Origin: an uncultured Gammaproteobacteria bacterium
Lineage (GTDB): Bacteria > Patescibacteriota > Microgenomatia > Levybacterales > GWA1-39-11
Length of the DNA: 64,000 nucleotides
Assembly: GCA_964409875.1 (NCBI GenBank)
Contig: CAYPEN010000003.1
Coordinates: forward strand, 557-64,556
Reading direction: 5' to 3'
In this document: in pieces, positions 22,352 through 60,716 of the stretch
How the letters are laid out: each line of letters begins with the position of its first letter
How positions within the stretch are numbered: the first letter of the stretch is position 1
Notes under the pieces: model-generated
What the model was told of the DNA's origin: nothing
What the model saw: the letters and a program-made list of their open reading frames with translations, nothing else
The model's database searches: none
Translations under genes and position numbers: made by a program

Positions 22352-23374
22352 ATGAATCAGAAGAAGAAAATTTTGTTCCTCACCAGATTATACCATCCGC
22401 ATATAGGTGGTGTCGAGAAGCATGTTGAAGAGCTCTCCTCTCGTCTTATTGAAAAGGGTTATGAAATAGTTATTATAACTGAAAAATTTAATAAAACTCT
22501 GCCGGAAACAGAAGTAATAAATGGTATCACTGTTTATCGTATGAGTATTCCGGCTGAAGGTTTTTTAAAAAAGTTTTTTATATGGAAATGGATGTTGTTG
22601 CATGCCAATATCATTGCAGACCAAGATATACTGCATATACATGACGTATTTTACTGGTATATTCCGTTTCGTTTTCTTTTTCTTTTTAAAAAAACGTATA
22701 TAACGTTCCATGGGTATGAAGGATTTCCCATAAAAAGGAGTTGGAAAATGCAACGCAAATTAGCTGAAAAGTTGACAAATGGTAATATTTGTGTGGGAGA
22801 TTTCATGAAAAAATGGTATAAAACGTGTCCTACCTCAGTCATCTATGGTGGGGTGAGGCTGGAGGCGGAAAAATATAAGGCAAAAACTCATTCAGGGGTA
22901 TTTTTTGGAAGACTGGACGACCAAACTGGAATTAAAGAGTATATACAATCCTATAATTTGATAAAACGAAAATACCCAGATTTTGAAATGACCGTTGTAG
23001 GGGAGGGGAAATTAAAAGAGCGCATACCAAAGGGGATAAAAATTGTAGAATTTAAGAAAGAAATTATTCCTTACATTCAAAAGAACAGAATAATTTTCGT
23101 TTCGAGGTATTTGTCCATGCTCGAAGCACTCGCCTCAAAAAGAGAAGTTGTAGCAGTCTACGATAATCCAGTGAAAAAAGATTACTTGAATCTCTCGCCC
23201 TTCAAGAAATACATACATATTGGAAGTAATTCTACGGAAATTGCCGATATCGTACTAAATCTTCTTGGAAGAAAAATGCCTACAAAAAAGCTTCATGAAG
23301 GCGCGAAATGGGCTCAGAAGCAAACATGGGATAAAGTCCTCTCCGTCTACCTTACTCTATGGGAAATAAAGTGA
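22352..23374 (+). CDS. glycosyltransferase family 4-like (GT-B)
   Basis: N-terminal KILFLTRLYHPHIGGVEKHVEELS typical of GT4. Confidence 0.65.
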   Translation: MNQKKKILFLTRLYHPHIGGVEKHVEELSSRLIEKGYEIVIITEKFNKTLPETEVINGITVYRMSIPAEGFLKKFFIWKWMLLHANIIADQDILHIHDVFYWYIPFRFLFLFKKTYITFHGYEGFPIKRSWKMQRKLAEKLTNGNICVGDFMKKWYKTCPTSVIYGGVRLEAEKYKAKTHSGVFFGRLDDQTGIKEYIQSYNLIKRKYPDFEMTVVGEGKLKERIPKGIKIVEFKKEIIPYIQKNRIIFVSRYLSMLEALASKREVVAVYDNPVKKDYLNLSPFKKYIHIGSNSTEIADIVLNLLGRKMPTKKLHEGAKWAQKQTWDKVLSVYLTLWEIK

Positions 23375-25107
23375 TACATCAGATAAAGAAGAATACCAAC
23401 AACCGCAAGAAGGCTTATCGTATTCCCCATTTTTCGTACAGGTGTATCTTCAAATCGAAGCGAGACTTTGTATACTCCCTGGGGTAGGCTAAATTTGATA
23501 AGTCCGGTTTTGCCTTCGTCCACGCTAAATTGATGCTGTTTTCCATTTACATATAAATTCCAACCGGGAAAATACAATGTGTTCTCCATGAATGAAGAGT
23601 TTCTGATTACCCGAACATCATAATCATGTACTATCGGAGTTCTTGTTGTTGATTTTATTAAGGCTTCGCCTTTTGAGAACATAAGGTGTGAATCCGGTGG
23701 GTTTTCAAACCAAAGATTGGAATTACCTCTCCATTTTGGGACAGCAGCCTGTAGGCCTTCCCCTTCTGCTGTTGCAATGGGTAAATGACGGATAAGGTAC
23801 GTGTCGGTAATATCTGTTATCATGCCCCGTGTTCCCCAATTAAGTATAGTGGTAGCTATTGCGAAAAAGACAATCGGTAACATGAATTTCCTATCCATAT
23901 ATTCCGAAGATATGCCGCCAATAAATGCTAAAAGAAAAGAAATGGGGAGCATAAGTCGATAAGCAAATTGGAAATTGGTCATCAGAGGAATCATTTTCCA
24001 AATAGGAAATGATATTGGGAAGAGCAAAAAAAGAAAAACAAAAAAAAATAAAAGAGAAATTCCGAAAATTTTTTTATGCGGATTTTTGATTTTCGATTTT
24101 AGAAAATAAAGAATAGAAATTGTCAACATGAATAGTTGGACAAAACCCATTGGAAAAGAAATTTGACCGGTAGGTCCTTGAAATAAAAATCCATATCTCC
24201 ACGGAGCAAAAAAATACAATAAAGGATTTTCAAAAGAAATGCTTTTTCCATATTGTGATTGAAGGGAGGAACTTGTTTCAAAAAGTGCGCCCATCCAGTA
24301 AAAAGCGGTGAGGAGAAGTCCTAGAGTTAACGATAAAAAGATTTTAGTTTTGTTTTCAGTTTTAACAAAGAAGGGAAACGCAAATATAAAAGGAGTTGAG
24401 ATAATGGAGATTGCAGGATGGGATAGAAGAAGGGCAGCATAACAAAAAATGCATAGAACAAAATACGATAAGGAGTCTTTTTTTGTGAGCTTTATCACAT
24501 AATAAAACACAAATGGGAGCAATGCATATGCGAATAATTCACCTATCGCTACGCGAAAATGCATGTCGACGAGATGGTATGGTGCAAATAAATACAAAAT
24601 GCTTGAAAATGCGGACGGAAGAGGTTTCAGAAAAGTTCGTGAAAATTTATACATTCCAATCCCCGATAGAATAAAAGTTATGGCGATAATCAATTTCTCT
24701 CCTAGGATAAATGAAAAACCGACAAGTTTTAGGAACGAAAGAAGATAGTAGGGAAGTGGGTAAATAAAGATAAAAAGTGGATATCCGTATGTATAGTTTA
24801 AAACAGAAGCCCAACGAACAGGAAAAATTCCATAATTTAATGAAATCCACATATCTATGGAGCGCTCAATGTGAAGTGCAAAGTCTCCGCTTTGATGAAC
24901 TCCACTACGAAGTAGGGAAGCTAAGGGAAGCAGCGAGGAGAATATTACTAAAAAAAACGGATAGTTTTTCGCTTTTTTTAGTAGATACGACAAAATAATA
25001 AATAGAAAAAAAGCAATAAGGCTTACTGTTACGAGTTTATATGAATCCATTAGTGGTATTATAACCCTTAGAAAAGGGGGTATAATAGCAAAAAATGAAG
25101 AAAGCAT
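23347..25107 (-). CDS. large polytopic membrane protein (YfhO/GT-C-like), related to 40218..43028
   Basis: More than 12 TM; the loop motif GIFPVRWASVLNYTYGYPLF parallels GIFPLWNNLNAGGVPLF in the 40218 gene. Confidence 0.4.
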   Translation of the reverse strand: MLSSFFAIIPPFLRVIIPLMDSYKLVTVSLIAFFLFIILSYLLKKAKNYPFFLVIFSSLLPLASLLRSGVHQSGDFALHIERSIDMWISLNYGIFPVRWASVLNYTYGYPLFIFIYPLPYYLLSFLKLVGFSFILGEKLIIAITFILSGIGMYKFSRTFLKPLPSAFSSILYLFAPYHLVDMHFRVAIGELFAYALLPFVFYYVIKLTKKDSLSYFVLCIFCYAALLLSHPAISIISTPFIFAFPFFVKTENKTKIFLSLTLGLLLTAFYWMGALFETSSSLQSQYGKSISFENPLLYFFAPWRYGFLFQGPTGQISFPMGFVQLFMLTISILYFLKSKIKNPHKKIFGISLLFFFVFLFLLFPISFPIWKMIPLMTNFQFAYRLMLPISFLLAFIGGISSEYMDRKFMLPIVFFAIATTILNWGTRGMITDITDTYLIRHLPIATAEGEGLQAAVPKWRGNSNLWFENPPDSHLMFSKGEALIKSTTRTPIVHDYDVRVIRNSSFMENTLYFPGWNLYVNGKQHQFSVDEGKTGLIKFSLPQGVYKVSLRFEDTPVRKMGNTISLLAVVGILLYLMYHFISHRVR

Positions 25108-26030
25108 TTATTACCACTGTTTTTAATGAAGAAAAAACAATTAAAAAACTTTTAGAGAGTTTGAAAAATCAAAATGAAATTCCTTCTGAAACTATTATTG
25201 TTGATGCATTTTCGGATGATAAAACGGTAAAAATTATCAAAGAGTATCAAGAAGAATATCCCTCATTACATATTGTTCTATTGCAAAAAAAGGGCAACCG
25301 GTCAGAAGGTAGGAATTTAGCGATCAAAAATACAAAGTCAGATATCATTGCGGTAAGCGACAGTGGTTGCGTTTTAAAAAAAGATTGGTTTTACGAAATT
25401 ACAAAACCATTTAATGAAAAAAGTGTCGACGTTGTGGCGGGGTTTTATAAACCGATAACACATTCGGTTTTCGAGAAAAGCCTTTCGACATATACATGTG
25501 TCATGGAGGAAAATGTTACCGATTCCTTTTTGCCTTCGTCCCGTTCTGTAGCATTTAAAAAAATTGTATGGCGGAAAGAAAAAGGCTATCCGGAAGATCT
25601 TGATACATGTGAAGATTTATTTTTTGCGCGAAAACTTAAAAGGAAAGGGTATAAATTTTTTGTAAACAAGAAAGCAGTTGTATATTGGCCGCAAAGAAAA
25701 AATTTATTCCAAGCATTCCATCAATTTTTTTCGTATGCAAAGGGGGATGGTATGGCACTATACGTGAGATGGCAAACTCCGCTTTTATACCTGAGAGTAA
25801 TTGCCAGTGTTATTTTATTTTTAATGTTTCTAAACACTCGAAGTATTGTGGTGCTCTTAATGATAGTCATGCTGTTTTTTTTGTATGTAGTGTGGTCGAT
25901 AATAAAAAATTACCGCTATGTAAAAAATAGGATGGCAATTTTTTACTTACCGTTGTTACAAATAACCTCCGATGTAGCGGTTTTTTTTGGTATGACGTTC
26001 GGTTTTTTTGGTCGGTTATTTCCGTTTTAA
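25095..26030 (+). CDS. GT2 glycosyltransferase with C-terminal TM helices
   Basis: AFITTVFNEEKTI...IIVDAFSDDKT GT-A DxD-type layout. Confidence 0.75.
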   Translation: MKKAFITTVFNEEKTIKKLLESLKNQNEIPSETIIVDAFSDDKTVKIIKEYQEEYPSLHIVLLQKKGNRSEGRNLAIKNTKSDIIAVSDSGCVLKKDWFYEITKPFNEKSVDVVAGFYKPITHSVFEKSLSTYTCVMEENVTDSFLPSSRSVAFKKIVWRKEKGYPEDLDTCEDLFFARKLKRKGYKFFVNKKAVVYWPQRKNLFQAFHQFFSYAKGDGMALYVRWQTPLLYLRVIASVILFLMFLNTRSIVVLLMIVMLFFLYVVWSIIKNYRYVKNRMAIFYLPLLQITSDVAVFFGMTFGFFGRLFPF

Positions 26031-27496
26031 CCCGTTTTGTGGCCTCTCATTAGGTCGAGGATTTGGCGGAGTGAATGAGGAAAAGCAATTACTATAAATA
26101 AAAGATACAGTAGGAATGAGATGAAAAGCTTGGCTAACAGATCTCCAAATGATTGTTGAAAAAAGGAATTTGTAATATTCATTACGATGAAAGTTGAAAG
26201 AAATAAGAAAGCACTTGAAATAAGGGTCCGGTTTATGTTGATACGTATGTCTGCTTTTCTACAGAGTAATACATAAGTAAAATAAGTAAGTGCAATAATG
26301 GCAAAAAATCCCATTGCAATACCGCTAAACCCAAAGTAAGTTAGAAGGTAAAATGATCCAAAGAATTCAAAAGCCGTAATTATTGAAACAGAAATTAATA
26401 TTTCTTTAGTTTTCCCAATAGCCATAAGAGCATGTCCTAGAAGGCCGGTGCCGTTCATAAAGAAAATACTTGCAACGTACCAATAGAGAGCGGGTAATGC
26501 ATCTATCCATTTGTCATTTAGGAAATAGTGTATTAAATCTCCCCCATATGCAAACACAGCGACTATAAAATACATTGTTACAATAGTAAGCATGTCAAAA
26601 GCCTTCTCTACAGAGGAAGATATAATACCTTTTTTTTCCTGAATTCTTGAAAATGATGAAAAAGACACTCTTCCCAAGTTATCTATAAAAACCCTTGGAA
26701 AAGAAGCTGTATTATAACTCCAGTCGAGAAATCCGACCTGAAAAAGAGGAATCCTGGGACCGGCAATTACCGGAATTATTGAATTATGAATTATTGTCAG
26801 AAGAAATCCTAATTGAAAATATTTCCCAATATTTACAAAATCCCGTACGTCTTTAAAATCAAAAACAAACAATGGAATGAGAGGTTTGAGGAGAAATGTA
26901 ATAATACTTTCAATAATTGTTTTGACTATTACTGCGATTATAAAGCTCCAAATGCCGAATCCCATTAAAGCTAACAATAGCGACACGGAATAGTAGGAAA
27001 AGATTCCGAAAATATCAATTAGTGCGATTTGTTTATAAGCAAGTTCTCTTTCGAGTAGTGCAGAAATAATATTGGGAAGAGGTTTTAGCAAAAGAGTAAG
27101 TGATAATATGCGCAGTATTACTATTTCTGTTAAAGAGAGCTGGTGATAGAAGGAAATAATTATAGGAGCAAAAATATTTAAAAGTATTACTGTAATGAAG
27201 GTAAGAGCAAATTTAATGTAAAATATTGTTGATAGTTGCCGAACAGTGGGCTCTTCTTTTTTTTGAATTATGGCAAGGTTAAGACCGACATCAGTAAATA
27301 TTTCTGCAGTGCTTAATACAAATGAGAGAATTGCAAACACACCAAAGACAGATGGGGCAAGAAGCCTAACCAGGAGTAATTGACCTGCAACAACAATTAC
27401 TTTAATAACCATCTCTCTTCCTATTAATTGAATTGCCCCGGTTATCGTTTTGCGTTTAATTTCAAAGAGAAGAGCTTTCGAATGAGCTTTTGACAT
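26027..27496 (-). CDS. polysaccharide biosynthesis protein / Wzx-like flippase (MOP superfamily)
   Basis: 489 aa, about 12-14 TM, typical size and topology. Confidence 0.5.
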   Translation of the reverse strand: MSKAHSKALLFEIKRKTITGAIQLIGREMVIKVIVVAGQLLLVRLLAPSVFGVFAILSFVLSTAEIFTDVGLNLAIIQKKEEPTVRQLSTIFYIKFALTFITVILLNIFAPIIISFYHQLSLTEIVILRILSLTLLLKPLPNIISALLERELAYKQIALIDIFGIFSYYSVSLLLALMGFGIWSFIIAVIVKTIIESIITFLLKPLIPLFVFDFKDVRDFVNIGKYFQLGFLLTIIHNSIIPVIAGPRIPLFQVGFLDWSYNTASFPRVFIDNLGRVSFSSFSRIQEKKGIISSSVEKAFDMLTIVTMYFIVAVFAYGGDLIHYFLNDKWIDALPALYWYVASIFFMNGTGLLGHALMAIGKTKEILISVSIITAFEFFGSFYLLTYFGFSGIAMGFFAIIALTYFTYVLLCRKADIRININRTLISSAFLFLSTFIVMNITNSFFQQSFGDLLAKLFISFLLYLLFIVIAFPHSLRQILDLMRGHKTG

Positions 27497-27510
27497 AGAG
27501 TAACGAATTT

Positions 27511-28218
27511 TTAAGCTTTGGAATAAGGTACGGCTTTGTTGGTTATCTTTTGGGTTTTGTGTTCCATGCGTTTTAAGTGGGCGATACAGGAGGCAATAAG
27601 ATGACCAACCATCATGTGGGTATCCTCAATCGGGCCATAATGAGATGTTTTTGAGATAATGCTAATATTTGCAATAGTTGCCAACTCCCCTCCTTTTTCA
27701 AAGCCTGTAAATGCGATGACAGTCGCGCCGATTTTTCTTGAGTATTTAACAGCTTTTATTACATTTTTACTGTTTCCGCTTCCTGAAATCGCAATCAGAA
27801 TATCATCCTTTTCTATAAGGTTTCGTAACTGCTGTAAAAAAATTGCATCATATCCAACATCATTGGCATAAGCAGTAATAAGCGCAGTATTGTCAGTCAA
27901 CGAAATAACCTTTATCCTTTTTTCTCTCTCATCGTATATTCTGTTTAGTGTTCCCTTCCCTAAGTCACAGGCCAAATGGGATGCAATACTTGCGCTTCCG
28001 CCGTTACCCAATACATAAATCTTTCTATCATTTTGATATGCTTCAATAATTTTTTCTATCGCTTTTAATATCTGTTTTCCGTTCAATTTTTTTATTGTTT
28101 TTTGCACCTCATCAAAATATGACGTAATTAATTGTGAAATTATTTGAGAAGTAGAAATGTCATTTGTTTTTTTCATATTAATTTTCAACAAAAATAATTT
28201 TACTACCTTGATTTTCAA
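27511..28218 (-). CDS. gmhA: SIS-domain sedoheptulose-7-phosphate isomerase-like
   Basis: IYVLGNGGSASIASHLACDL matches the GmhA GNGGSA motif. Confidence 0.7.
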   Translation of the reverse strand: MKIKVVKLFLLKINMKKTNDISTSQIISQLITSYFDEVQKTIKKLNGKQILKAIEKIIEAYQNDRKIYVLGNGGSASIASHLACDLGKGTLNRIYDEREKRIKVISLTDNTALITAYANDVGYDAIFLQQLRNLIEKDDILIAISGSGNSKNVIKAVKYSRKIGATVIAFTGFEKGGELATIANISIISKTSHYGPIEDTHMMVGHLIASCIAHLKRMEHKTQKITNKAVPYSKA

Positions 28219-29161: not shown

Positions 29162-29859
29162 TTTTTTAGCAATTCATGGACCTTTCTTAGTCTGTCGGGA
29201 GTGCCAATGTCCATCATGAATTCTGAAGTATTATAACAGAAAATCTTTCCCCGTCTTCCTAAAAGATGAGGGAGAAGATCGTGTGCAATGTCATATGGCT
29301 TTGTGAGATTGAGATAATTCTTAATGGCAGGATTTACGATGTATAATGCTGAGAGATTAAATGGACGTTGGGGAATAATTTTGTGCGGTTTTATTAATAT
29401 GGAACGTAGTTCATTATTATTGTCAAATTCGATCAGATCACTATCCTCAGGATGTGTAGACGGATGTACAGCAGCTGTAATAATACCATTATGCTTTAAA
29501 TGAAATCGAAGCATTTTTTTATAGTTAACAAAAGAAACAACATCTCCATAGATAATAAGAGTATTATCATCGAGAAATTCCATTAAGGGTTCTAATGCCC
29601 CGCCTGTTCCCAAAAGTTTTGCTTCATGAGAATACGTAATGTTTAATCCATATCTTCTTCCATCGCCAAAGTAATCCATGATTATTCTTGAGAGATGGTG
29701 AACAGTAATACATATATCCTTAACCCCAGCTTCTTTTAGTTGTTGAATATGGAGAAGAAGCAACGGTTTTCCGTTTATCTCAACCATTGGTTTTGGAATT
29801 TTGCTTGAAATATCCGGTAGTCTGGTTCCTTTACCGGCGCAGTGAATGATAGCCTTCAT
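29158..29859 (-). CDS. hddC: sugar-phosphate nucleotidyltransferase, heptose-1-phosphate guanylyltransferase-like
   Basis: AIIHCAGKGTRL (GxGTRL) N-terminal motif. Confidence 0.65.
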   Translation of the reverse strand: MKAIIHCAGKGTRLPDISSKIPKPMVEINGKPLLLLHIQQLKEAGVKDICITVHHLSRIIMDYFGDGRRYGLNITYSHEAKLLGTGGALEPLMEFLDDNTLIIYGDVVSFVNYKKMLRFHLKHNGIITAAVHPSTHPEDSDLIEFDNNNELRSILIKPHKIIPQRPFNLSALYIVNPAIKNYLNLTKPYDIAHDLLPHLLGRRGKIFCYNTSEFMMDIGTPDRLRKVHELLKK

Positions 29860-33555: not shown

Positions 33556-33556
33556 A

Positions 33557-54811: not shown

Positions 54812-55522
54812 ATGAAATATAAGGGAGTAAAAACATTAGAAGTGCTTGAAGGAGCTGATAATTACAATAACTGGATAGCGAGCTCACTCAAAAAATACAT
54901 TAAGTCCCCCGCCTTAGAAATAGGCGCGGGAACCGGCAATATTTCCTCGTGCTTTATAAATTTGAAAGAACTGGTCTTAACCGATGTTGATCCTGATTTG
55001 GTCGATTTTTTATCCCGAAAATTTAAGCAAAATGAAAATATTCATACTGAAGTGCTTGATATCTCAAAGCAATTGGGAGTTATAAAAAACAAGTTCAAAA
55101 CTATTTATTCTGTTAACGTATTAGAACACATTAAAGACGATAGAAAGGCTCTTCGTAATATACATAGTTTATTGCAAGAAGATGGAAGAGTAATTCTGTT
55201 AGTGCCTGCTAAAAAAAGGGCATATACAAAGCTTGATGCGAATTTAGGACATGTAAAACGGTATGAGAAAAATGAGTTGAGAAGGTTACTTGAAGAGTGT
55301 AATTTCAAGGTAGAACACCTTGAATATTTTAATTCTTTAGGTCTTCTAAGCTGGATAGTTAGAAGCAAGCTTACAAGGAATAACTCTCATTTAAAAAAAT
55401 CACATGTGAAAATGTTTGACATTCTTGTGCCTATCTTAAGAAGAATTGAACCGAGCAGAGGGCTACCAGTAGGAATATCATTAATAGCCGTTGGAAAAAG
55501 GCAACGTAACCAATTTTCATAA
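54812..55522 (+). CDS. class I SAM-dependent methyltransferase
   Basis: ALEIGAGTGNIS motif I. Confidence 0.75.
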   Translation: MKYKGVKTLEVLEGADNYNNWIASSLKKYIKSPALEIGAGTGNISSCFINLKELVLTDVDPDLVDFLSRKFKQNENIHTEVLDISKQLGVIKNKFKTIYSVNVLEHIKDDRKALRNIHSLLQEDGRVILLVPAKKRAYTKLDANLGHVKRYEKNELRRLLEECNFKVEHLEYFNSLGLLSWIVRSKLTRNNSHLKKSHVKMFDILVPILRRIEPSRGLPVGISLIAVGKRQRNQFS

Positions 55523-55536: not shown

Positions 55537-56283
55537 ATGAAAAGTACTCTAAGTATTGTTGTTCTTACTCATAACGATGAGAGTAGAATAGTGGATTGTC
55601 TTGAGTGCTTAAGATTTGCAGATGAATTAATAATCGTTGATGATAAGTCACAGGATAGAACAGTTGAGCTTGCAAAGCAATTTACCAGTAAGGTTTTTGT
55701 GAGAGAACTCAACAAGAATTTTTCAAATCAGAGAAATTTTGCGCTTAACAATGTGCACTCTCAGTGGGTATTGTTCATAGACTCCGATGAGTTAGTCTCA
55801 AATGCTTTAAGAGATGAGATTCTTACAGCTATTGGGAAAAAAGATGTTTCCGGATTCAATATAAAGCGGTTTGACTATGTATGGGGTAAAAAAATGACTC
55901 ATGGTGAGTTAAGCCAAGTAAAACTTTTACGATTAGCCAGAAAGGATGACGGAAAATGGCATGGGAAAGTGCATGAAACATGGAGGATAATAGGAAAAGT
56001 GGAGGAGCTTTCGCAGCCGTTACTTCATGTTCCACATCAAAATATCAGACAATTTGTAAGTGATATTGATGAATATTCAACCCTTAGAGCCGAGGAATTA
56101 AGAGAAAAAAAATCTTCAGTGTCATTTTTAGATATCCTATGCTATCCAATGGCAAAATTTATTCAGAATTACGTGATAAGGCAAGGCTATAAAGATGGAA
56201 TTCCAGGAATACTATATGCCTTGATGATGAGCTTCCATTCATTTTTGGTGCGGGCAAAATTATATCAATTACATAATGAGTAG
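55537..56283 (+). CDS. GT2 glycosyltransferase
   Basis: LSIVVLTHNDESRI...IIVDDKSQDRT. Confidence 0.75.
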   Translation: MKSTLSIVVLTHNDESRIVDCLECLRFADELIIVDDKSQDRTVELAKQFTSKVFVRELNKNFSNQRNFALNNVHSQWVLFIDSDELVSNALRDEILTAIGKKDVSGFNIKRFDYVWGKKMTHGELSQVKLLRLARKDDGKWHGKVHETWRIIGKVEELSQPLLHVPHQNIRQFVSDIDEYSTLRAEELREKKSSVSFLDILCYPMAKFIQNYVIRQGYKDGIPGILYALMMSFHSFLVRAKLYQLHNE

Positions 56284-57844
56284 ATATCCTTCGAAGCGTG
56301 TTACCAATAATCCTTTGATAGCATCTTTTGAAAACAAATGGCGAATTGCTTTACTAATTTTTCTATTTGCCTTCTCCATCCGATTGGCAACAATTGATAA
56401 AATTGGAAAGACTTGGGATGAGGGTGCATATGTTGAAATAGGAAATAGATATGTTGAGCTAGCATTAAAACATGATTTTTCTAACGCATATTGGTACTTG
56501 CAGTCAGATCATCCACCTCTAGCAAGATATATATATGGATTGGCAAGCACGTTAGATAGTAAAATTATTGAAGGAAAAGTTATATTTAATAATTCATATA
56601 CCGCTTCACGGATAGTAGCATCGTTCATGGGCTCATTGACCGTGCTGTTTATTGTTTTTATCGGATATAAATACTTTTCTTCATTTGTTGCAATTTCCTC
56701 AGGTTTAATATTTGCTCTTATTCCTTTTTTTATCGGATTGTCGCAATTAGGCACACTGGAAAGTCCGATTATGCTCTTTTTCACTGCGACTGTATTCTTC
56801 TTCTTGGAATTCCAATCAAAACCTACTAATAAAAATCTCATTTTTACGGGTTTACTACTTGGATGTTCGCTATTGGTAAAGCAGTCGAATGTAATTATCA
56901 TTCCTCTGCTTGTTTTAATAGGCATCATTCGAAATACTACGGATAAAAAAATAAAGCTTAATAACTTCCTTTCAGATGCAAAAAGTATCTTGATTATTTC
57001 ACTGATAGCATTTCTTACCTGTTTTGTATTATGGCCAATGCCCTTTTTCCATTTGAGTGAGCTTTTCTATGTACAAAATAAAATGTGGGTACATGCGGTG
57101 AAACTACCACCACCGGAGGTTTATTTTGGAGTCTTACGATTAGTGCCAAAACAATATTACCTGGTTATGTTTTTTATCACCACGCCTTTTTTACTGTTGT
57201 TTCTGGGAGTTCTTGGAGGAATAAAAGTATTACTAAATAGAAAATTTGTAATGATTGTTATTTTGATATGGTTTTTGTTCCCATTTTTGCAAATGTTTTA
57301 TTCGTTCAAACAGCATGGTGTGAGATACATAATTGAAATTTATGCACCTTTCGCACTTCTATGTGGCATTGGACTTGAATTTATTAGCGAGAAACTATCA
57401 GGTGTCAAATATATAAAAGCTATTACTCTTAGTTTTGTTGTGTTTTATCTCTTTTTAATTTTAGGAAAAATAACGCCCTATTATCTCGATTACTTCAATG
57501 AGTTTGTGGGGGGGAACAATTATGTATATCAACATAAATTATTTCAGATGGGGTGGTGGGGACAAGGGATAGAGGAAGCTGCAAAGTATATTTCCAGAAA
57601 CGAAAAGAAAATAGTTACTGTTGCTGTGGATGGGCCGCAACCGGCATCGGTAATGCCCCGACTTTGGAATATAAAGACGGTTTATTATAATAGGAACTCT
57701 ACCTTTGATTATGTTATTGTCCCATACTTTAATGTTGTAAGGCTTGGTTTTCCTGAAAAGGAATTGACTGCACATTATAGAAAAATTCATTCCGTAATGA
57801 TTGATAGAGCAGAGTTAGTTAAAATCTATAAACACATTCAATAG
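56276..57844 (+). CDS. GT-C glycosyltransferase of ArnT/PMT family (GT39/GT83-like)
   Basis: KTWDEGAYVEIGNRY...SDHPPLARYIYG matches the ArnT first periplasmic-loop signature (DE...Y.E.......PPL.Y). Confidence 0.6.
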   Translation: MSRYPSKRVTNNPLIASFENKWRIALLIFLFAFSIRLATIDKIGKTWDEGAYVEIGNRYVELALKHDFSNAYWYLQSDHPPLARYIYGLASTLDSKIIEGKVIFNNSYTASRIVASFMGSLTVLFIVFIGYKYFSSFVAISSGLIFALIPFFIGLSQLGTLESPIMLFFTATVFFFLEFQSKPTNKNLIFTGLLLGCSLLVKQSNVIIIPLLVLIGIIRNTTDKKIKLNNFLSDAKSILIISLIAFLTCFVLWPMPFFHLSELFYVQNKMWVHAVKLPPPEVYFGVLRLVPKQYYLVMFFITTPFLLLFLGVLGGIKVLLNRKFVMIVILIWFLFPFLQMFYSFKQHGVRYIIEIYAPFALLCGIGLEFISEKLSGVKYIKAITLSFVVFYLFLILGKITPYYLDYFNEFVGGNNYVYQHKLFQMGWWGQGIEEAAKYISRNEKKIVTVAVDGPQPASVMPRLWNIKTVYYNRNSTFDYVIVPYFNVVRLGFPEKELTAHYRKIHSVMIDRAELVKIYKHIQ

Positions 57845-57906: not shown

Positions 57907-59523
57907 TTGGGCTTTACTAATACTTGGAATATACTTCTATCATCTTATTTGCAAAACCGGAAGATGTTAAAAATCGCTTTTTTAATAGGTATCTATTCGT
58001 ACTTTATTTTATTCCTTGGACTCATAGGTTGGCTAAATAATACGTTTTTATTTCCTATAACAGTTTTTTTTGCGTTAGCTTTTCTATTTATTAACAAAAA
58101 AGAGTTAAAAAATTTACTCCAATCAAAAGTAAGAATTGAGAATAAAAGGGATTATTATTTGTATTTAATTCTCGGTATTTTGTTCTTAGTAAATCTTGTA
58201 GGGGCGCTTGGACCGGAGTTAGCGTTTGATGCTTTATGGTATCACTTAACAATTCCAAAAATGTATCTTTTGAACAACAAAATATATTTTATTCATGGAA
58301 ATCTTTTATACTACAACCTTTTGCCACGCATTACCGAAATGTTATATACCGCAGCATTGTCATTGAGTAATGAAATAATTGCCAAAGTAATTCACTATTC
58401 TTTTGGTATTTTATCCAGTTTTGCGCTATACAGGCTTTCGCGAATATATCTTACGAAAAAATGGGCAATTATTACGGTTATTATTTTTTATTCAAATCTC
58501 GTCATATCTTGGCTTTCTATAACCGCTTATTCCGATTTGCCGCGCGCTTTTTTTGAAATACTTTCCTTCTATTATTTTTTACTGTACAGAAAAGAAAAAA
58601 AGAATTCTCACTTTGTTATTAGCGCATTGTTAATGGGTTTTGCAATATCTACAAAAATTTTGGCTATCGGTACTGTTATTATTTTTACCATTCTTATTTG
58701 GTCACAAAACACCAGCATATTTTTTAAATTGAAAAAAACTCTACTTTTTATGACACTTTCAGTGTCTGTACCTCTTCCTTGGTTTATTATTTCCTTTTTA
58801 TATACGGGCAATCCTTTTTTCCCGTTATTTTCTCATTTGGGATTAAGAAATTTTTCACTAGAACTTTTATCACCTTTCACATTTATAAATACATTTATTA
58901 ATATTTTCCTTTTTTCGCCTGATCCTATCAGCCCAATATACATAGTATTCCTTCCTTTTGTTTTTCTGTTATTAATTTCAAAATTCAAGAAATACAAGAT
59001 GCTTTTTCTTTATTCAGTGCTCTCCTACATAATATGGTACACAACCTCTCAATCAGGTGGTGCCAGATTTCTCGCAGCATATTTGCCCGCTTATTCTGTA
59101 CTTATTGCGTTAGCGTTAAGCCAGTTGAAGAGAAAAACTATTCTTTCGATTTCTTTTGGTCTCATATTTCTTATTGCAACAACTACGATAGTATATCGGG
59201 CTATTGCAAACATGAAGTACGTCCCTGTGATAATTGGCAGTCAAACAAAGGAGGATTTTTTAATGAAAAACCTCAATTTTTCTTTCGGAGATTTTTTTGA
59301 TGAAAATTCAATTATCAAAAAAATTGTTGGGACTAAGACGGTTGAGTTGATAAATATGCACAACCTTTATTACGTTGATTTCCCTTTTACTCTTAAGGAG
59401 TTTTCCGACAATTCGAAAGCCGCGTATGTCCTAGTCCAAGGAGGAGACCTTCCGACAACCTACAATAATCCACAACTCATATATAAAAACGACAAGACCC
59501 ATGTTAAACTCTATAAATTATGA
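57907..59523 (+). CDS. polytopic membrane protein, GT-C-like
   Basis: 538 aa, more than 12 TM, loop GPELAFDALWYHLTIPKMY. Confidence 0.4.
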   Translation: MGFTNTWNILLSSYLQNRKMLKIAFLIGIYSYFILFLGLIGWLNNTFLFPITVFFALAFLFINKKELKNLLQSKVRIENKRDYYLYLILGILFLVNLVGALGPELAFDALWYHLTIPKMYLLNNKIYFIHGNLLYYNLLPRITEMLYTAALSLSNEIIAKVIHYSFGILSSFALYRLSRIYLTKKWAIITVIIFYSNLVISWLSITAYSDLPRAFFEILSFYYFLLYRKEKKNSHFVISALLMGFAISTKILAIGTVIIFTILIWSQNTSIFFKLKKTLLFMTLSVSVPLPWFIISFLYTGNPFFPLFSHLGLRNFSLELLSPFTFINTFINIFLFSPDPISPIYIVFLPFVFLLLISKFKKYKMLFLYSVLSYIIWYTTSQSGGARFLAAYLPAYSVLIALALSQLKRKTILSISFGLIFLIATTTIVYRAIANMKYVPVIIGSQTKEDFLMKNLNFSFGDFFDENSIIKKIVGTKTVELINMHNLYYVDFPFTLKEFSDNSKAAYVLVQGGDLPTTYNNPQLIYKNDKTHVKLYKL

Positions 59524-60716
59524 GCGATAAGGTTGCAAAAATTCTCTTGTATGGGCTTTTGGTAACTTTTCCTCTAGGCATGTTAGTGCGATTTAAGGTT
59601 GCCAATAATATATACATTACCCCTCAAGACATAATTGTTTTTTTCCTTTTTATTCTTTCCATTGTGAGCTTCATTAGAATGAGGAGGAATTTTATGACAG
59701 ACAAATTTATGCTGTTTCAGGGTTTGTTTTTGTTTACCGGTCTCATAAGTCTTATTGTTAATGCTTTTCTTTATAAAGACATCAACTTCTTGGTGTCCAT
59801 ATTATATCTTTTGAGGTATGTTATTTATTTATCTCTTTTTAATATTTCAAATTTGTTTGAAAAAAAAGGTTTTGAAAGAAAAATTTTAGTATTCAGCGGA
59901 AGTACTTTTCTTATGTTGGGATTTTTGCAATTCTTTCTGTACTACGATTTAAAGTATTTGTATTATTTGGGATGGGACAACCATCTTTACAGACTTTTTT
60001 CGACTTTTCTTGATCCTAACTATGCAGGAGTTTTTTATTCACTTTACTTTATTTTTACATTTTCCGATGTACTGTATAAAAAAATAAAGCAAAGTTATAA
60101 AGAGCTTGTTTTGTCATTCTTTATAGTAATTGCTGTATACCTTACTTATTCAAGAACAGCCCTGATATCCTTTTTGGTTGGTATTGCAACCATTGCAATT
60201 TTAAAAAGGAAGTTAAAGATTTTCCTTTTCAGTATTCTTGCATTCGTAGTGCTTCTTTCAACATTGTCAGATGTATCAATTGAGGGTCTTAATCCCTTCA
60301 GGACTGCCTCAAGCGTAGAACGAATAATTTCTGTTAAAGAGGCTTTGACTATTTTCTCGGACAACCCAGCAATAGGTGTTGGATTTAACGCATATCGGTA
60401 TTCATTGATAAGAAATGGTTTTCGCACCGGTGTAGGTGTTGCCATGAGTAACGCAGATGCTGGGACGGACAATAGTTTTCTCTTTGTTCTGGCTACTACG
60501 GGAGTTATCGGTTTCACATTTTTTGCTTTGAGTTACCTTTTTCTCTTGAAAAAATTATATGCAGAAAGGTTAATAGTGGGAATTATTCCTTTTTGCCTGA
60601 CTATTTCTTTTCTTGCATCTAGCCTTTTTCTAAATGTGTTGTTTTACATGCCGATATTAATATTTGTTTTTATAGTTATTTCTTTACGGAGGCAGGTGTT
60701 TGGGAAATTAGAATAA
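59520..60716 (+). CDS. O-antigen ligase/polymerase-like (Wzy_C family) membrane protein
   Basis: About 10 TM, central YLTYSRTALISFLVGIAT block resembling the Wzy_C motif and a large extracytoplasmic loop. Confidence 0.45.
   Translation: MSDKVAKILLYGLLVTFPLGMLVRFKVANNIYITPQDIIVFFLFILSIVSFIRMRRNFMTDKFMLFQGLFLFTGLISLIVNAFLYKDINFLVSILYLLRYVIYLSLFNISNLFEKKGFERKILVFSGSTFLMLGFLQFFLYYDLKYLYYLGWDNHLYRLFSTFLDPNYAGVFYSLYFIFTFSDVLYKKIKQSYKELVLSFFIVIAVYLTYSRTALISFLVGIATIAILKRKLKIFLFSILAFVVLLSTLSDVSIEGLNPFRTASSVERIISVKEALTIFSDNPAIGVGFNAYRYSLIRNGFRTGVGVAMSNADAGTDNSFLFVLATTGVIGFTFFALSYLFLLKKLYAERLIVGIIPFCLTISFLASSLFLNVLFYMPILIFVFIVISLRRQVFGKLE

What the first reader, a model, noticed from the sequence alone, without database searches (positions are those of the whole stretch)
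22352..60716. 38 kb glycosylation supercluster with at least nine polytopic GT-C-like membrane proteins and several Dpm1-like GT2 synthases
Between lepB and the atp operon nearly every gene is glycan-related. There are GT2, GT4 and GT17-like transferases, Dpm1-like polyprenyl-P-sugar synthases (44532..45275, 52240..52959, 55537..56283, and the N-domain of 37988..40225) and a flippase. There are also three SAM methyltransferases, a C-methyltransferase, two SGNH esterases/acyltransferase-like proteins, a nucleotide-sugar dehydrogenase and an O-antigen-ligase-like protein. The polytopic proteins are at 23347..25107, 37988..40225, 40218..43028, 42992..44539, 49395..50906, 53518..54804, 56276..57844 and 57907..59523, plus the ligase-like one. 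Several show the ArnT/PMT-type DE...Y...PPL first-loop signature. Such a concentration of lipid-linked-donor glycosyltransferases suggests an elaborate outer-face protein or lipid glycosylation system (S-layer or pilin glycan), not a simple O-antigen.
Basis: partly seen in the sequence, partly recalled or inferred. Interest (0 to 1): 0.55.

Follow-up and report, generated by a model that had tools for sequence, protein, structure and literature searches.

The report
GT-C-rich surface glycan locus, Patescibacteria
A tiny-genome candidate-phyla-radiation bacterium devotes 38 kb to one gene cluster that makes unusual sugars and carries eight membrane glycosyltransferases that work on the outer face of the membrane, so it probably builds an elaborate, still unknown cell-surface glycan.

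Summary
Positions 22352-60716 contain 33 tightly packed ORFs (about 99% coding), and 32 have glycan-related assignments. Eight polytopic proteins are GT-C-type glycosyltransferases. Five hit Pfam directly (PTPS_related, PMT, three PMT_2). One is YfhO through its homologues. Two have no Pfam hit but gave confident AlphaFold models whose best PDB matches are all GT-C enzymes (STT3, PglB, AftA, ArnT). A ninth polytopic protein carries Wzy_C. Only two of the four proposed Dpm1-like synthases are confirmed (44532-45275, 52240-52959). The protein at 55537-56283 resembles GmaR/SunS/TarS, and the N-domain of 37988-40225 is a generic GT2. The organism is a Patescibacterium (Levybacteria/Microgenomates-like). 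The core order GT4, GT2::PMT_2, YfhO, 515-aa GT-C, plus Dpm1-like GT2s and further GT-Cs, recurs in 15 or more related genomes, while the sugar-tailoring genes vary. Best reading: an unusually large multi-component transmembrane glycosylation system of the Arn, Gtr, CsbB-YfhO or mycobacterial type. The acceptor (wall polysaccharide or lipoglycan versus surface protein) cannot be decided from sequence. LPS O-antigen is unlikely. This is a new variant of a known kind.

The parts
22352..23374 (+). GT4 (GT-B) cytoplasmic glycosyltransferase
   Evidence: Pfam Glyco_transf_4 1.2e-16; no TM
23347..25107 (-). GT-C membrane glycosyltransferase, PTPS_related/YfhO-like, 586 aa, about 12 TM
   Evidence: PF10131 6e-12, weak YfhO C-terminal hit; loop motif 'SGDFALH...YGYPLF'; orthologues in L008, L010, L015, L016
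25095..26030 (+). GT2 with three C-terminal TM helices. It has the GtrB-like architecture, but its sequence is closest to TarS-type GT2s.
   Evidence: PF00535 1.3e-25; TM at 228-298; best PDB hit TarS-like 5.3e-9
26027..27496 (-). Wzx/MOP-family flippase
   Evidence: Polysacc_synt_3 1.4e-50; TuaB / MOP flippase / O-glycosylation flippase hits
27511..30443 (-). Heptose nucleotide-sugar module: GmhA-like isomerase (27511-28218), HddA-like GHMP kinase (28178-29161), sugar-1-P nucleotidyltransferase (29158-29859), GmhB-like phosphatase (29856-30443)
   Evidence: Pfam SIS_2, GHMP, NTP_transferase, HAD; NCBIfam best hits phosphoheptose isomerase 2.6e-33, HddA 3.8e-47, GmhB 3.5e-32, and HddC 2.2e-26 among others, all below the curated cutoffs
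30446..31816 (-). SGNH/GDSL hydrolase-fold protein with 3 N-terminal TM helices (glycan O-acyl esterase or transferase candidate)
   Evidence: Lipase_GDSL_2 3.9e-8; TM; 39% identical to 36636-37985
31791..32690 (-). SAM-dependent methyltransferase
   Evidence: Methyltransf_23 3.6e-29
32683..33555 (-). GT17-like glycosyltransferase
   Evidence: PF04724 3.1e-30; also present in L023 and L024
33557..34528 (-). SDR NDP-sugar 4,6-dehydratase/epimerase
   Evidence: Epimerase 3e-44; dTDP-glucose 4,6-dehydratase-like 3.2e-43
34601..35500 (+). GT2, rhamnosyltransferase (WbbL)-like
   Evidence: PF00535 2.4e-23; TIGR01556 2.7e-29
35504..36613 (+). GT4 glycosyltransferase; first gene of the conserved core
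   Evidence: Glyco_transf_4 1.2e-13; orthologues in 8 related loci
36636..37985 (+). SGNH/GDSL protein with 3 N-terminal TM helices
   Evidence: Lipase_GDSL_2 2.4e-12; TM
37988..40225 (+). Fusion of a cytoplasmic GT2 domain (1-260) with a GT-C (PMT_2) module, 745 aa
   Evidence: PF00535 3.6e-21 and PF13231 2.5e-10; N-domain is a generic GT2, not specifically Dpm1-like; conserved upstream of YfhO in 10 loci and in L023, L024
40218..43028 (+). YfhO-family GT-C, 936 aa. The last ~100 residues are a 2-TM module that is a separate 98-aa ORF in some relatives.
   Evidence: Own PF09586 hit only 19.6 bits. 103 homologues, most carrying PF09586. C-terminal tail against the L024 98-aa ORF: 30% identity, E 3e-14
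42992..44539 (+). 515-aa GT-C of a family almost uncovered by Pfam, with a small C-terminal alpha/beta domain
   Evidence: No Pfam, NCBIfam or PDB sequence hit. D41/E42/G43/W48 and Y66/G67/P68 invariant in the 13-sequence alignment A3; E42, G43, W48 and P68 also invariant in A1. AF2 pLDDT 85.5, pTM 0.87. Foldseek top 20 are all GT-C, E 1.8e-6 to 4.9e-4. Family has 11,771 representatives, a few of which reach PMT_2
44532..45275 (-). Dpm1/ArnC/GtrB-like GT2 catalytic domain without TM helices (polyprenyl-phosphate sugar synthase candidate)
   Evidence: NCBIfam ArnC 2.6e-14, PgfS 4.2e-14; PDB DPMS 2e-13, ArnC 1e-8, GtrB 8e-7
45272..46540 (-). NDP-hexose C-methyltransferase
   Evidence: Methyltransf_14 3.7e-40, Methyltransf_13 2.6e-13
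46521..47489 (-). NDP-sugar 4,6-dehydratase-like SDR
   Evidence: Epimerase 9.1e-44; LegB / dTDP-glucose dehydratase about 1e-41
47533..48402 (+). RmlD-like 4-ketoreductase
   Evidence: RmlD_sub_bind 2.7e-54; TIGR01214 4.8e-50
48407..49321 (-). SAM-dependent methyltransferase
   Evidence: Methyltransf_23 3.2e-22
49266..50906 (+). PMT_2 GT-C (start uncertain; the gene caller uses 49356)
   Evidence: PF13231 3.3e-7; called as 516 aa in L001; orthologues in 9 loci
50964..52238 (+). Nucleotide-sugar 6-dehydrogenase (UDP-ManNAc/UDP-Glc dehydrogenase family)
   Evidence: UDPG_MGDP_dh domains; TIGR03026 1.1e-94, above cutoff
52240..52959 (-). Dpm1/AglJ-like GT2 without TM helices (polyprenyl-phosphate hexose synthase candidate)
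   Evidence: AglJ 1.2e-42, dolichyl-P hexose transferase 3.7e-34; PDB DPMS 8.6e-23
53072..53521 (+). 149-aa single-TM protein of unknown function. Its stop overlaps the start of the next GT-C. Candidate accessory subunit.
   Evidence: No family hit; one N-terminal TM; adjacent to the 428-aa orthologue in L004, L012, L016, L017 and L024 (147 aa)
53518..54804 (+). 428-aa all-helical GT-C without a soluble domain
   Evidence: No Pfam hit for the protein itself; 3 of 9 non-identical homologues carry PMT_2; invariant D124, K271, E273, G274; AF2 pLDDT 86.7, pTM 0.90; top 16 PDB matches are all GT-C, E 7.5e-3 and above
54812..55522 (+). SAM-dependent methyltransferase
   Evidence: Methyltransf_23 1.3e-14
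55537..56283 (+). Soluble GT2, closest to GmaR/SunS/TarS-type transferases; not Dpm1-like by sequence
   Evidence: PF00535 1e-19; PDB GmaR 8.4e-15, SunS 1.3e-8; no polyprenyl-P family among NCBIfam hits
56276..57844 (+). PMT/PMT_2 GT-C with the classic 'WDEG...HPPL' first loop
   Evidence: PF02366 3.1e-15, PF13231 2.3e-12; sequence
57907..59523 (+). PMT_2 GT-C
   Evidence: PF13231 3.3e-8; LIC_10190 / LA_3751 family hits, sub-threshold
59520..60716 (+). Wzy_C-domain polytopic protein (O-antigen ligase / polymerase / O-oligosaccharyltransferase superfamily)
   Evidence: PF04932 5.8e-15; about 10 TM; no NCBIfam or PDB sequence match

Best explanation
This is the cell-surface glycan assembly locus of a Patescibacterium (CPR; Levybacteria/Microgenomates-like). 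It is organised as an unusually large multi-component transmembrane glycosylation system.

Shown:
- The locus encodes enzymes for at least three unusual activated sugars: a GDP-heptose-type route, a 4,6-dehydratase / C-methyltransferase / RmlD-like route to a C-methyl deoxyhexose, and a uronic-acid-forming dehydrogenase.
- It encodes soluble GT4, GT2 and GT17-like transferases, a Wzx-type flippase and a Wzy_C protein.
- It encodes two Dpm1/ArnC-like GT2s and eight GT-C enzymes.
- It encodes three SAM-dependent methyltransferases besides the C-methyltransferase, and two membrane-anchored SGNH proteins.

Inferred mechanism:
1. A lipid-linked oligosaccharide is assembled on the cytoplasmic face by the GT4, GT2 and GT17 enzymes. 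Methylation also occurs there, because SAM is cytoplasmic.
2. The oligosaccharide is flipped by Wzx, then polymerised or ligated by the Wzy_C protein.
3. In parallel, the Dpm1-like GT2s load single, partly tailored sugars onto polyprenyl phosphate, as ArnC does in the Arn pathway. The operon dehydratase, C-methyltransferase, Dpm1-like GT2 (47489 to 44532, minus strand) suggests this.
4. The eight GT-C enzymes use these donors outside the membrane to extend and decorate the glycan.
5. The SGNH proteins add or remove O-acyl groups.

The least certain step is the acceptor. I favour a wall-associated heteropolysaccharide or lipoglycan, analogous to Gram-positive secondary wall polymers or mycobacterial arabinogalactan/LAM, possibly ending on protein. 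A conserved GT-C core with exchangeable sugar-tailoring genes implies a conserved scaffold with lineage-specific sugars.
For: Domain assignments for 32 of 33 ORFs.

GT-C identity: Pfam for five proteins; homologues carrying YfhO or PMT_2; AF2 plus Foldseek for the two Pfam-less proteins, whose best matches are exclusively GT-C enzymes. Acidic first-loop residues are invariant in the alignments.

Dpm1-like identity of 44532 and 52240: best PDB hits are DPMS, ArnC and GtrB across the catalytic domain; NCBIfam best hits are AglJ, dolichyl-P hexose transferase, ArnC and PgfS.

Taxonomy: named homologues and 15 genome loci are Levybacteria, Microgenomates, Parcubacteria or Patescibacteria. A sortase lies upstream.

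Conserved synteny: the order GT4, (SGNH), GT2::PMT_2, YfhO, 515-aa GT-C, with Dpm1-like GT2s, the PMT_2 GT-C, the 149-aa plus 428-aa pair and the dehydrogenase, recurs at only 30-50% protein identity. In L024 the tailoring genes are replaced by aminotransferases and a hexapeptide acyltransferase.

The literature framework (GT-A synthase, GtrA- or Wzx-type flippase, GT-C of YfhO, PMT_2 or no-Pfam type acting on teichoic acids and wall polysaccharides) is described in PMC8035078.
Against: - No initiating phosphoglycosyltransferase (Bac_transf or MraY/WecA type), chain-length regulator, LCP ligase or GtrA-type flippase occurs anywhere in the window. The Wzx/Wzy branch is therefore incomplete here, and the flippase for monophosphate-linked sugars is unassigned.
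- Only two Dpm1-like synthases are identifiable for eight GT-Cs.
- The Dpm1-like proteins lack TM helices, so membrane association is assumed.
- All NCBIfam hits for the sugar pathways fall below the curated equivalog cutoffs, so sugar identities are tentative.
- Features hinting at protein acceptors: a PF02366 PMT hit at 56276, and a GmaR/SunS-like GT2 at 55537 just upstream.
- No biochemical or expression data exist.
Confidence: 0.6

Rival explanations
1. One reading: the locus is mainly a protein O-glycosylation system. The PMT-like GT-Cs, and the Wzy_C protein acting as a PglL/WsaB-type O-oligosaccharyltransferase, would glycosylate S-layer proteins, pilins or sortase-anchored surface proteins.
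For: 56276-57844 hits the protein-O-mannosyltransferase family PF02366 (3.1e-15) and has its 'DE...PPL' loop. The GT2 just upstream (55537) is closest to the protein/peptide glycosyltransferases GmaR and SunS. 44532 hits PgfS (4.2e-14); the listed paper PMC12041528 (title and abstract) reports glycosylation of Ser/Thr-rich disordered regions of streptococcal membrane-associated proteins, and I take PgfS to belong to that system from my own knowledge. Wzy_C is the domain shared with PglL/PilO/WsaB O-OTases (my own knowledge). A sortase gene lies upstream.
Against: No S-layer protein or pilin was recognised in the window. The only adjacent surface protein (60735-61469) belongs to the tail of the atp operon, not to the glycan operons, and is not Ser/Thr-rich. 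The Wzy_C protein shows no PglL-specific domain. YfhO and PMT_2 enzymes characterised so far in monoderms act on teichoic acids and wall polysaccharides (PMC8035078). Eight GT-Cs are more than any described bacterial protein-glycosylation system needs.
Confidence: 0.27
2. The region is a glycosylation island that merely co-localises several independent GT-A/GT-C pairs, each modifying a different target (peptidoglycan-linked polymer, lipoglycan, proteins), not one pathway for one product.
For: There are ten or more short transcription units on alternating strands. The GT-Cs show no detectable pairwise similarity. Gene content around the core is modular and shuffled between genomes. B. subtilis, Listeria and Lactococcus each carry several independent GT-A/GT-C pairs with different targets (PMC8035078).
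Against: In those organisms the pairs are scattered, whereas here order and adjacency are retained across deep divergence. Only two Dpm1-like synthases serve eight GT-Cs, which argues for shared donors and a shared product.
Confidence: 0.1
3. The large membrane proteins are transporters or other unrelated folds, or the locus is an LPS O-antigen or lipid-A modification cluster.
For: ArnC- and ArnT-like hits and a Wzy_C 'O-antigen ligase' domain.
Against: All top structural matches are GT-C enzymes; transporters appear only at probability 0.2 or lower. The Pfam families are GT-C families. All relatives are Patescibacteria. A sortase is present. No lipid A or LPS-core genes are in the window.
Confidence: 0.03

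Closest known systems
Multi-component (three-component) transmembrane glycosylation systems of monoderm bacteria: CsbB/GtcA/YfhO, GtlA/GtlB, CsdAB/CD/EF, GacI/J/K/L (PMC8035078)
   Same: A GT-A polyprenyl-P-sugar synthase works with a GT-C of YfhO, PMT_2 or no-Pfam type on the outer face. A Wzx-type flippase is a possible carrier, as proposed for GacK. A soluble GT-A lacking TM helices parallels GacI, which needs a separate membrane protein. A small GT-C with an adjacent accessory protein matches the speculation in that review.
   Different: Eight GT-Cs lie in one contiguous locus, instead of one pair per locus. No GtrA-type flippase is present. There is a GT2::GT-C fusion. The organism is a CPR bacterium. 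The acceptor is unknown.
Arn pathway (ArnA/B/C/D/E/F/T) of Gram-negative bacteria
   Same: The logic of tailoring a nucleotide sugar, transferring it to undecaprenyl phosphate with a Dpm1-like GT2 (ArnC), and delivering it outside with a GT-C (ArnT). The operon dehydratase, C-methyltransferase, Dpm1-like GT2 (47489 to 44532) mirrors this. ArnC is the top NCBIfam hit of 44532.
   Different: The sugars differ. There are no ArnE/F-type flippase genes and no evidence for lipid A in this lineage. All hits lie far below the equivalog cutoffs.
Mycobacterial arabinogalactan / LM-LAM machinery (Ppm1, EmbA-C, AftA-D, PimE, MptA-C); from my own knowledge
   Same: It is the only well-studied bacterial system in which many GT-C enzymes (more than 10) jointly polymerise a wall glycan outside the membrane from polyprenyl-P sugars. 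AftA, EmbB and PimE are among the structural matches.
   Different: No sequence-level relationship. The mycobacterial genes are only partly clustered. The donors differ (DPA, PPM).
STT3/AglB/PglB oligosaccharyltransferases
   Same: They are the top Foldseek matches of the 515-aa protein (E 1.8e-6 to 3e-5, TMq 0.46-0.57). There is also a weak match of its C-terminal domain to AglB C-terminal domains (E 0.024). Both have an acidic EL1 motif.
   Different: No STT3 family was reported by Pfam for this protein. No WWDYG motif is present; the conserved C-terminal motif is 'AWxVDG'. AftA, DPY19 and ArnT score almost as well, so only the shared GT-C module is demonstrated.
GDP-D-glycero-alpha-D-manno-heptose pathway (GmhA/HddA/GmhB/HddC) of S-layer glycan and capsule producers; from my own knowledge
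   Same: The same four enzyme types sit in one operon. The best NCBIfam hits are phosphoheptose isomerase, HddA and GmhB.
   Different: All scores are below the equivalog cutoffs. The nucleotidyltransferase is ambiguous: MurU, ManC and HddC score similarly.

Membership tests
GT-C glycosyltransferase superfamily (all eight polytopic proteins) | Polytopic membrane protein with 8 or more TM helices | tested here: met
   9-13 hydrophobic segments in each; helix bundles in the two AF2 models
GT-C glycosyltransferase superfamily (all eight polytopic proteins) | Conserved acidic residue or modified DxD motif in the first extracytoplasmic loop | tested here: met
   Visible in all eight sequences. D41/E42 invariant in A3, with E42 also invariant in A1; D124 invariant in A2. 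The outward orientation of the loop could not be confirmed by K/R counting (inconclusive).
GT-C glycosyltransferase superfamily (all eight polytopic proteins) | Sequence or fold membership in a recognised GT-C family | tested here: met
   Pfam PTPS_related, PMT and PMT_2 (three proteins) are above or near the cutoffs. YfhO is supported through homologues. The 515-aa and 428-aa proteins are supported by Foldseek and by PMT_2-bearing homologues. The evidence for the 428-aa protein is weaker (E 7.5e-3 and above).
GT-C glycosyltransferase superfamily (all eight polytopic proteins) | Use of polyprenyl-(di)phosphate-linked sugar donors | not testable with these tools
   Inferred only from family membership and the neighbouring Dpm1-like GT2s
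YfhO family (40218-43028) | Match to PF09586 over its length | tested here: inconclusive
   The protein's own hit is 19.6 bits against a 28.5-bit cutoff and is C-terminal only. Homologues of 33-63% identity that cover 86-100% of the query carry PF09586.
Dpm1/GtrB/ArnC-type polyprenyl-phosphate sugar synthases | GT2 catalytic domain most similar to DPMS/ArnC/GtrB over its full length | tested here: met
   Met for 52240-52959 (DPMS 8.6e-23; AglJ 1.2e-42) and for 44532-45275 (DPMS 2e-13, ArnC, GtrB)
Dpm1/GtrB/ArnC-type polyprenyl-phosphate sugar synthases | The same criterion applied to 55537-56283 and to the N-domain of 37988-40225 | tested here: not met
   The best hits of 55537 are GmaR, SunS and TarS, and no polyprenyl-P family appears. 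For the 37988 N-domain, generic GT2s score best, and DPMS ranks 4th and matches only the N-terminal half.
Dpm1/GtrB/ArnC-type polyprenyl-phosphate sugar synthases | Membrane anchoring by C-terminal TM or amphipathic helices | tested here: not met
   No TM segment in 44532 or 52240. This resembles human DPM1, M. tuberculosis Ppm1-D2 and GacI, which rely on partner proteins (my own knowledge; PMC8035078).
Three-component glycosylation system (GtrA/GtrB/GtrC type) | GtrA-family small flippase | tested here: not met
   No PF04138 hit among the ORFs of 100 aa or more in the locus, and no intergenic space for a further gene. Only a Wzx-type MOP flippase is present.
Wzx/Wzy-dependent polysaccharide pathway | Wzx flippase plus a Wzy/WaaL-superfamily protein | tested here: met
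   Polysacc_synt_3 1.4e-50; Wzy_C 5.8e-15
Wzx/Wzy-dependent polysaccharide pathway | Initiating phosphoglycosyltransferase and chain-length regulator in the locus | tested here: not met
   No Bac_transf, Glycos_transf_4 (MraY/WecA) or Wzz hits among the window ORFs scanned
STT3/PglB/AglB oligosaccharyltransferases (515-aa protein) | STT3 Pfam match and the WWDYG motif in the C-terminal domain | tested here: not met
   No Pfam family was reported for this protein. The conserved C-terminal motif is AWxVDG, not WWDYG. Only the general GT-C fold matches.
PglL/PilO/WsaB O-oligosaccharyltransferases (59520-60716) | Wzy_C domain plus PglL-specific regions, and a defined protein acceptor | tested here: inconclusive
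   Wzy_C is present. No further family, NCBIfam or PDB match exists. The acceptor cannot be tested.
GDP-D-glycero-alpha-D-manno-heptose pathway | GmhA, HddA, GmhB and HddC equivalogs | tested here: inconclusive
   The best hits are to these families, but all lie below the curated cutoffs (for example HddA 161 bits against 600). The nucleotidyltransferase is ambiguous.

The most novel reading that the evidence does not exclude
Levybacteria and related Patescibacteria may build their surface with a conserved extracytoplasmic 'glycan factory' of eight GT-C enzymes that has no characterised counterpart outside the Mycobacteriales. Within it, the conserved YfhO plus 515-aa pair would include a previously unrecognised enzyme that resembles oligosaccharyltransferases: its best structural matches are STT3, AglB and PglB, and its family is almost uncovered by Pfam (about 11,800 representative sequences). 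That enzyme would transfer the finished glycan en bloc onto surface proteins or the wall. If so, the glycan could be a key determinant of host attachment in these episymbionts.
Probability: 0.12. Interest if true: 0.8.

Novelty: new variant of a known kind. Interest (0 to 1): 0.5.

Why it matters
Patescibacteria have genomes of roughly 1 Mb (my own knowledge) and are thought to live attached to hosts, yet their surface chemistry is essentially unknown. The literature searches found no paper that treats GT-C enzymes, YfhO or protein or wall glycosylation in this group, and a 2024 perspective does not mention glycans at all. A conserved 20-38 kb locus with eight outer-face glycosyltransferases is a very large investment for such a genome. 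That argues for a complex, lineage-typical surface glycan.

The locus gives concrete targets for glycan analysis and for testing host recognition. Polysaccharide genes already scored as essential or as conferring a growth defect in a cultivated Saccharibacterium (PMC10633639). The work also shows that a large GT-C family (11,771 representatives) and a small soluble-domain-less GT-C with a candidate accessory subunit are still largely uncovered by Pfam.

Tried and rejected
- BLASTP all-against-all of the locus proteins found no similarity between any two GT-Cs. Recent duplication is therefore rejected.
- phmmer and profile searches of the three poorly annotated membrane proteins against PDB sequences found nothing significant: no hits for two, one chance-level hit (E 2.6) for the third, and none for the A1 profile.
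- hhalign of the 515-aa family against the 428-aa family gave probability 6.6%. It aligned the acidic-loop and 'xEG' regions but is not significant.
- Positive-inside (K/R) counting on crude hydropathy TM predictions was inconclusive for loop orientation.
- The sigma-70 promoter and terminator scan showed no enrichment over shuffles. Only the two best promoter-like matches fall in divergent intergenic regions.
- The search for related loci with the full A1 alignment failed for lack of conserved stretches. The trimmed alignment A3 worked.
- The idea that the Ig-like protein at 60735-61469 is the glycosylation target was checked and rejected. It is the conserved last gene after atpD-atpC in five related contigs.
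- The idea that the heptose module is unique to this genome was corrected. The part visible in the closest relative L023 (HAD phosphatase onwards) is there too. The module is absent at that position in more distant relatives.
- No tRNA or integration scar borders the locus. The lower GC (0.31-0.36 against 0.38-0.43 in the flanks), combined with deep synteny, argues against recent horizontal acquisition of the core.
- The listing of cluster members gave no accession or organism name.

Full report
**Observation.** The region 22352-60716 contains 33 ORFs of at least 100 aa that abut or overlap one another. Summed intergenic space is about 0.4 kb. LepB (21493-22053, minus strand; Peptidase_S26 4.6e-52) lies on the left. 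On the right lie an Ig-like protein, atpC and atpD (60735-63283, minus strand). GC content is 0.31-0.36 inside the locus and 0.38-0.43 in the housekeeping flanks. Pfam and NCBIfam assign a glycan-related function to every ORF except the 149-aa ORF at 53072-53521.

**The polytopic proteins are GT-C enzymes.**
- Direct Pfam GT-C family hits:
  - 23347-25107: PTPS_related, 6e-12
  - 37988-40225: PMT_2, 2.5e-10, fused behind a GT2 domain
  - 49266-50906: PMT_2, 3.3e-7
  - 56276-57844: PMT 3.1e-15 and PMT_2 2.3e-12
  - 57907-59523: PMT_2, 3.3e-8
- The 936-aa protein (40218-43028) has only a sub-threshold YfhO hit of its own. It has 103 homologues, most of them full-length at 33-63% identity, and most carry PF09586.
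- The 515-aa protein (42992-44539) has no Pfam, NCBIfam or PDB sequence match.
  - An 18-sequence alignment gave an AlphaFold model with pLDDT 85.5 and pTM 0.87.
  - Its 20 best Foldseek matches in the PDB are all GT-C enzymes: STT3, AglB, PglB, AftA, DPY19 and ArnT, with E 1.8e-6 to 4.9e-4 and TMq 0.46-0.57. Transporters appear only at probability 0.2 or lower.
- The 428-aa protein (53518-54804) has no Pfam hit either, but three of its nine non-identical homologues carry PMT_2.
  - Its model (pLDDT 86.7, pTM 0.90) is an all-helical bundle. The 16 best matches are again only GT-C enzymes (STT3, ArnT, Pmt4, AftA, PimE, EmbB), though with weak E-values of 7.5e-3 and above.
Examples are 'TWDEGAY...DHPPLARY' in 56276, 'IDEGQFAAW...YGPLMIYP' in 42992 and 'PSWDGW...NPPF' in 53518.
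  - The acidic residues are invariant in the family alignments. These are D41 and E42 in the 13-sequence alignment A3. E42 is also invariant when three distant members are added in A1. D124 is invariant in A2.
- The ninth protein (59520-60716) has a Wzy_C domain (5.8e-15).
- The eight GT-Cs show no pairwise BLASTP similarity, so they are ancient, distinct lineages and not recent duplicates.

**Corrections on the GT2s.**
- 52240-52959 is Dpm1-like: NCBIfam AglJ 1.2e-42 and dolichyl-P hexose transferase 3.7e-34; best PDB hit P. furiosus DPMS at 8.6e-23.
- 44532-45275 is Dpm1/ArnC/GtrB-like over its whole catalytic domain: ArnC 2.6e-14 and PgfS 4.2e-14; PDB DPMS 2e-13, ArnC and GtrB.
- Both lack TM helices.
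- 55537-56283 is closest to GmaR, SunS and TarS and hits no polyprenyl-phosphate family.
- The N-domain of 37988-40225 is a generic, WbbL/rhamnosyltransferase-like GT2, paralogous to 34601-35500.
- 25095-26030 has the GtrB-like architecture (GT2 plus three C-terminal TMs) but a TarS-like sequence.

**Sugar supply and decoration.**
- A minus-strand operon encodes GmhA-, HddA-, nucleotidyltransferase- and GmhB-like enzymes (27511-30443). This is the enzyme set of the GDP-D-glycero-alpha-D-manno-heptose route. All scores are below the equivalog cutoffs.
- The same operon also encodes an SGNH protein, a methyltransferase, a GT17-like transferase and a 4,6-dehydratase-like SDR (30446-34528).
- A second module is the 4,6-dehydratase-like gene, the C-methyltransferase and the Dpm1-like GT2 (47489 down to 44532), with a divergent RmlD-like reductase at 47533-48402.
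- A nucleotide-sugar dehydrogenase at 50964-52238 scores above its cutoff.
- Three SAM-dependent methyltransferases and two paralogous SGNH proteins, each with three N-terminal TMs, complete the set.

**Organism and conservation.**
- The 936-aa and 428-aa proteins were looked up by exact sequence; both are encoded on one 36-kb metagenome contig (SRR11845634). Five locus proteins, including the 428-aa GT-C, are listed with an NCBI source and a longest carrying contig of 195 kb.
- Named homologues are Candidatus Levybacteria and Parcubacteria.
- A scan of GTDB representative genomes with the 515-aa family found 15 loci. Those with an informative label are Levybacteria, Microgenomates, Parcubacteria, Saccharimonadales or Patescibacteria; one is labelled only 'bacterium'. 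Several TPA assemblies are labelled 'uncultured Gammaproteobacteria' but carry the same locus.
- I mapped the window proteins onto these loci with phmmer.
  - YfhO lies directly upstream of the 515-aa gene in 13 of 15 loci.
  - The GT2::PMT_2 fusion lies upstream of YfhO in 10.
  - The dehydrogenase is present in 11, and the C-methyltransferase/dehydratase pair in 10.
  - The PMT_2 GT-C (49266 type) is present in 9, the AglJ-like GT2 in 8, and the 428-aa GT-C in 6.
  - The 149-aa ORF is adjacent to the 428-aa GT-C in 4 of those 6.
  - Protein identities are only 30-50%.
- Annotated contigs confirm this. The closest relative (L023) is collinear and also carries the visible part of the heptose-side operon (from the HAD phosphatase onwards).
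- A distant relative on a 776-kb contig (L024) keeps the order Wzx, GT4, GT2::PMT_2, YfhO, 98-aa ORF, 521-aa GT-C, GT2, ..., GT2, 507-aa protein, 147-aa protein, 444-aa protein, GT2. It replaces the C-methyl-sugar genes with aminotransferases and a hexapeptide acyltransferase.
- The locus therefore has an old, conserved GT-C core and exchangeable sugar-tailoring cassettes, like a serotype-determining locus.

**Mechanism.** The components fit the multi-component transmembrane glycosylation systems reviewed in PMC8035078. In these, a GT-A makes a C55-P-sugar, a GtrA- or Wzx-type flippase moves it, and a GT-C (YfhO, PMT_2 or no Pfam domain) transfers it to a wall polymer outside the membrane. The review also notes that soluble GT-As can need a separate membrane partner and that small GT-Cs may need an acceptor-binding partner. 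My inference for this locus:
1. Lipid-linked oligosaccharide is assembled and methylated on the cytoplasmic face by the GT4, GT2 and GT17 enzymes and the methyltransferases.
2. Wzx exports it, and the Wzy_C protein polymerises or ligates it.
3. The Dpm1-like GT2s load tailored monosaccharides onto polyprenyl phosphate, as in the Arn pathway. The gene order dehydratase, C-methyltransferase, Dpm1-like GT2 supports this.
4. The eight GT-Cs use these donors outside the membrane.
5. The SGNH proteins handle O-acyl groups. They may work with the Acyl_transf_3 protein encoded upstream at 9244-10365.

Shown: domain and fold identities, synteny and taxonomy. Inferred: donors, order of steps and acceptor.

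**Gaps and acceptor.**
- No phosphoglycosyltransferase, chain-length regulator, LCP ligase or GtrA flippase is encoded in the window.
- For a protein acceptor:
  - the PF02366 hit of 56276;
  - the GmaR/SunS-like GT2 just upstream;
  - the PgfS hit;
  - the Wzy_C domain shared with O-oligosaccharyltransferases;
  - an upstream sortase.
- For a polysaccharide or lipoglycan acceptor:
  - the Wzx plus Wzy_C pair;
  - the known substrates of YfhO and PMT_2 enzymes in monoderms;
  - the number of GT-Cs, which is matched only by mycobacterial wall assembly (my own knowledge).
- I favour the polysaccharide or lipoglycan reading, but only weakly.
- The Ig-like protein next to Wzy_C is not a good acceptor candidate. 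It is the conserved tail gene after atpD-atpC in five related contigs.
- An LPS O-antigen is unlikely given the lineage and the sortase.

**The 515-aa family.** The word-indexed search found only 19 homologues. An exhaustive profile search found 11,771 representatives at E 0.001 or lower and 496 at 1e-30 or lower. Many are 640-750 aa with an N-terminal extension. Of ten sampled members, one passes the PMT_2 cutoff, two hit it weakly and seven hit nothing. The family is thus a large, essentially unannotated offshoot of the PMT_2-type GT-Cs. Its best structural matches are oligosaccharyltransferases, and its C-terminal domain weakly matches AglB C-terminal domains. However, it lacks an STT3 family match and the WWDYG motif, so membership in that family is not supported.

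**Novelty.** Full-text searches found no paper that treats GT-C enzymes, YfhO or glycosylation in Patescibacteria. A 2024 perspective on the group does not mention glycans. The only related point is that extracellular-polysaccharide genes were essential or fitness-relevant in a cultivated Saccharibacterium (PMC10633639). The enzyme families and the general mechanism are known. The scale, the conserved architecture, the GT2::GT-C fusion, the two poorly annotated GT-C families and the CPR context are new. I classify it as a new variant of a known kind, with moderate interest.

Noticed in passing
window 42678-43028 (C-terminus of the 936-aa YfhO); L024 12505-12801: The last ~100 residues of the YfhO protein, which contain two TM helices, correspond to a separate 98-aa ORF that lies between YfhO and the 515-aa GT-C in a distant relative (30% identity, E 3e-14). 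YfhO homologue lengths are bimodal (about 835-860 and about 930-950 aa). This looks like a recurrent fusion or split of a small membrane module of unknown role.
   Followed up: partly
window 53072-53521: A 149-aa single-TM ORF with no family match has a stop codon that overlaps the start of the soluble-domain-less 428-aa GT-C. It co-occurs with that GT-C in at least five relatives and may supply an extracytoplasmic domain in trans. Gene callers predicted a shorter 97-aa version lacking the TM.
   Followed up: partly
window 9244-15718: More envelope-modifying genes lie upstream of the reported locus, separated from it by IleRS, FtsW/RodA, L21, ParB and LepB. They are an Acyl_transf_3 acyltransferase (9244-10365, -), a polysaccharide deacetylase (11814-12701, +), a NodU/CmcH-type carbamoyltransferase (13413-15116, +) and a sortase (15122-15718, -).
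   Followed up: no
window 82-7200: The left end of the window has a phage-type integrase (82-714), an HTH protein (1313-1630), a DUF4325 protein (6260-6613) and several ORFs without any family match, at low GC (0.32-0.36). It may be a mobile element or prophage remnant.
   Followed up: no
window 60735-61469 (-); L018-L022: A 244-aa membrane-anchored Ig-like/Glucodextran_B-domain protein is the conserved last gene after atpD-atpC in five related metagenome contigs. This is an unusual appendage to an ATP synthase operon. It is convergent with the Wzy_C gene.
   Followed up: partly
L003, L005, L006, L008, L010, L011, L015 (GTDB genome contigs): Seven TPA metagenome-assembled genomes whose records are titled 'uncultured Gammaproteobacteria bacterium' carry this Levybacteria/Microgenomates-type locus. 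The record titles are probably placeholder or erroneous taxonomy.
   Followed up: no
window 25095-25107: The GT-C gene on the minus strand (start at 25107) and the GT2 gene on the plus strand (start at 25095) have divergent starts that overlap by 13 nt as listed. One of the two true starts may lie further in. The same gene pair is adjacent in L010, L015 and L016.
   Followed up: no
P0225 (1298 aa): One distant member of the 515-aa GT-C family carries a C-terminal F5/8 type C (discoidin, galactose-binding-like) domain. This is consistent with a carbohydrate acceptor for at least part of the family.
   Followed up: no
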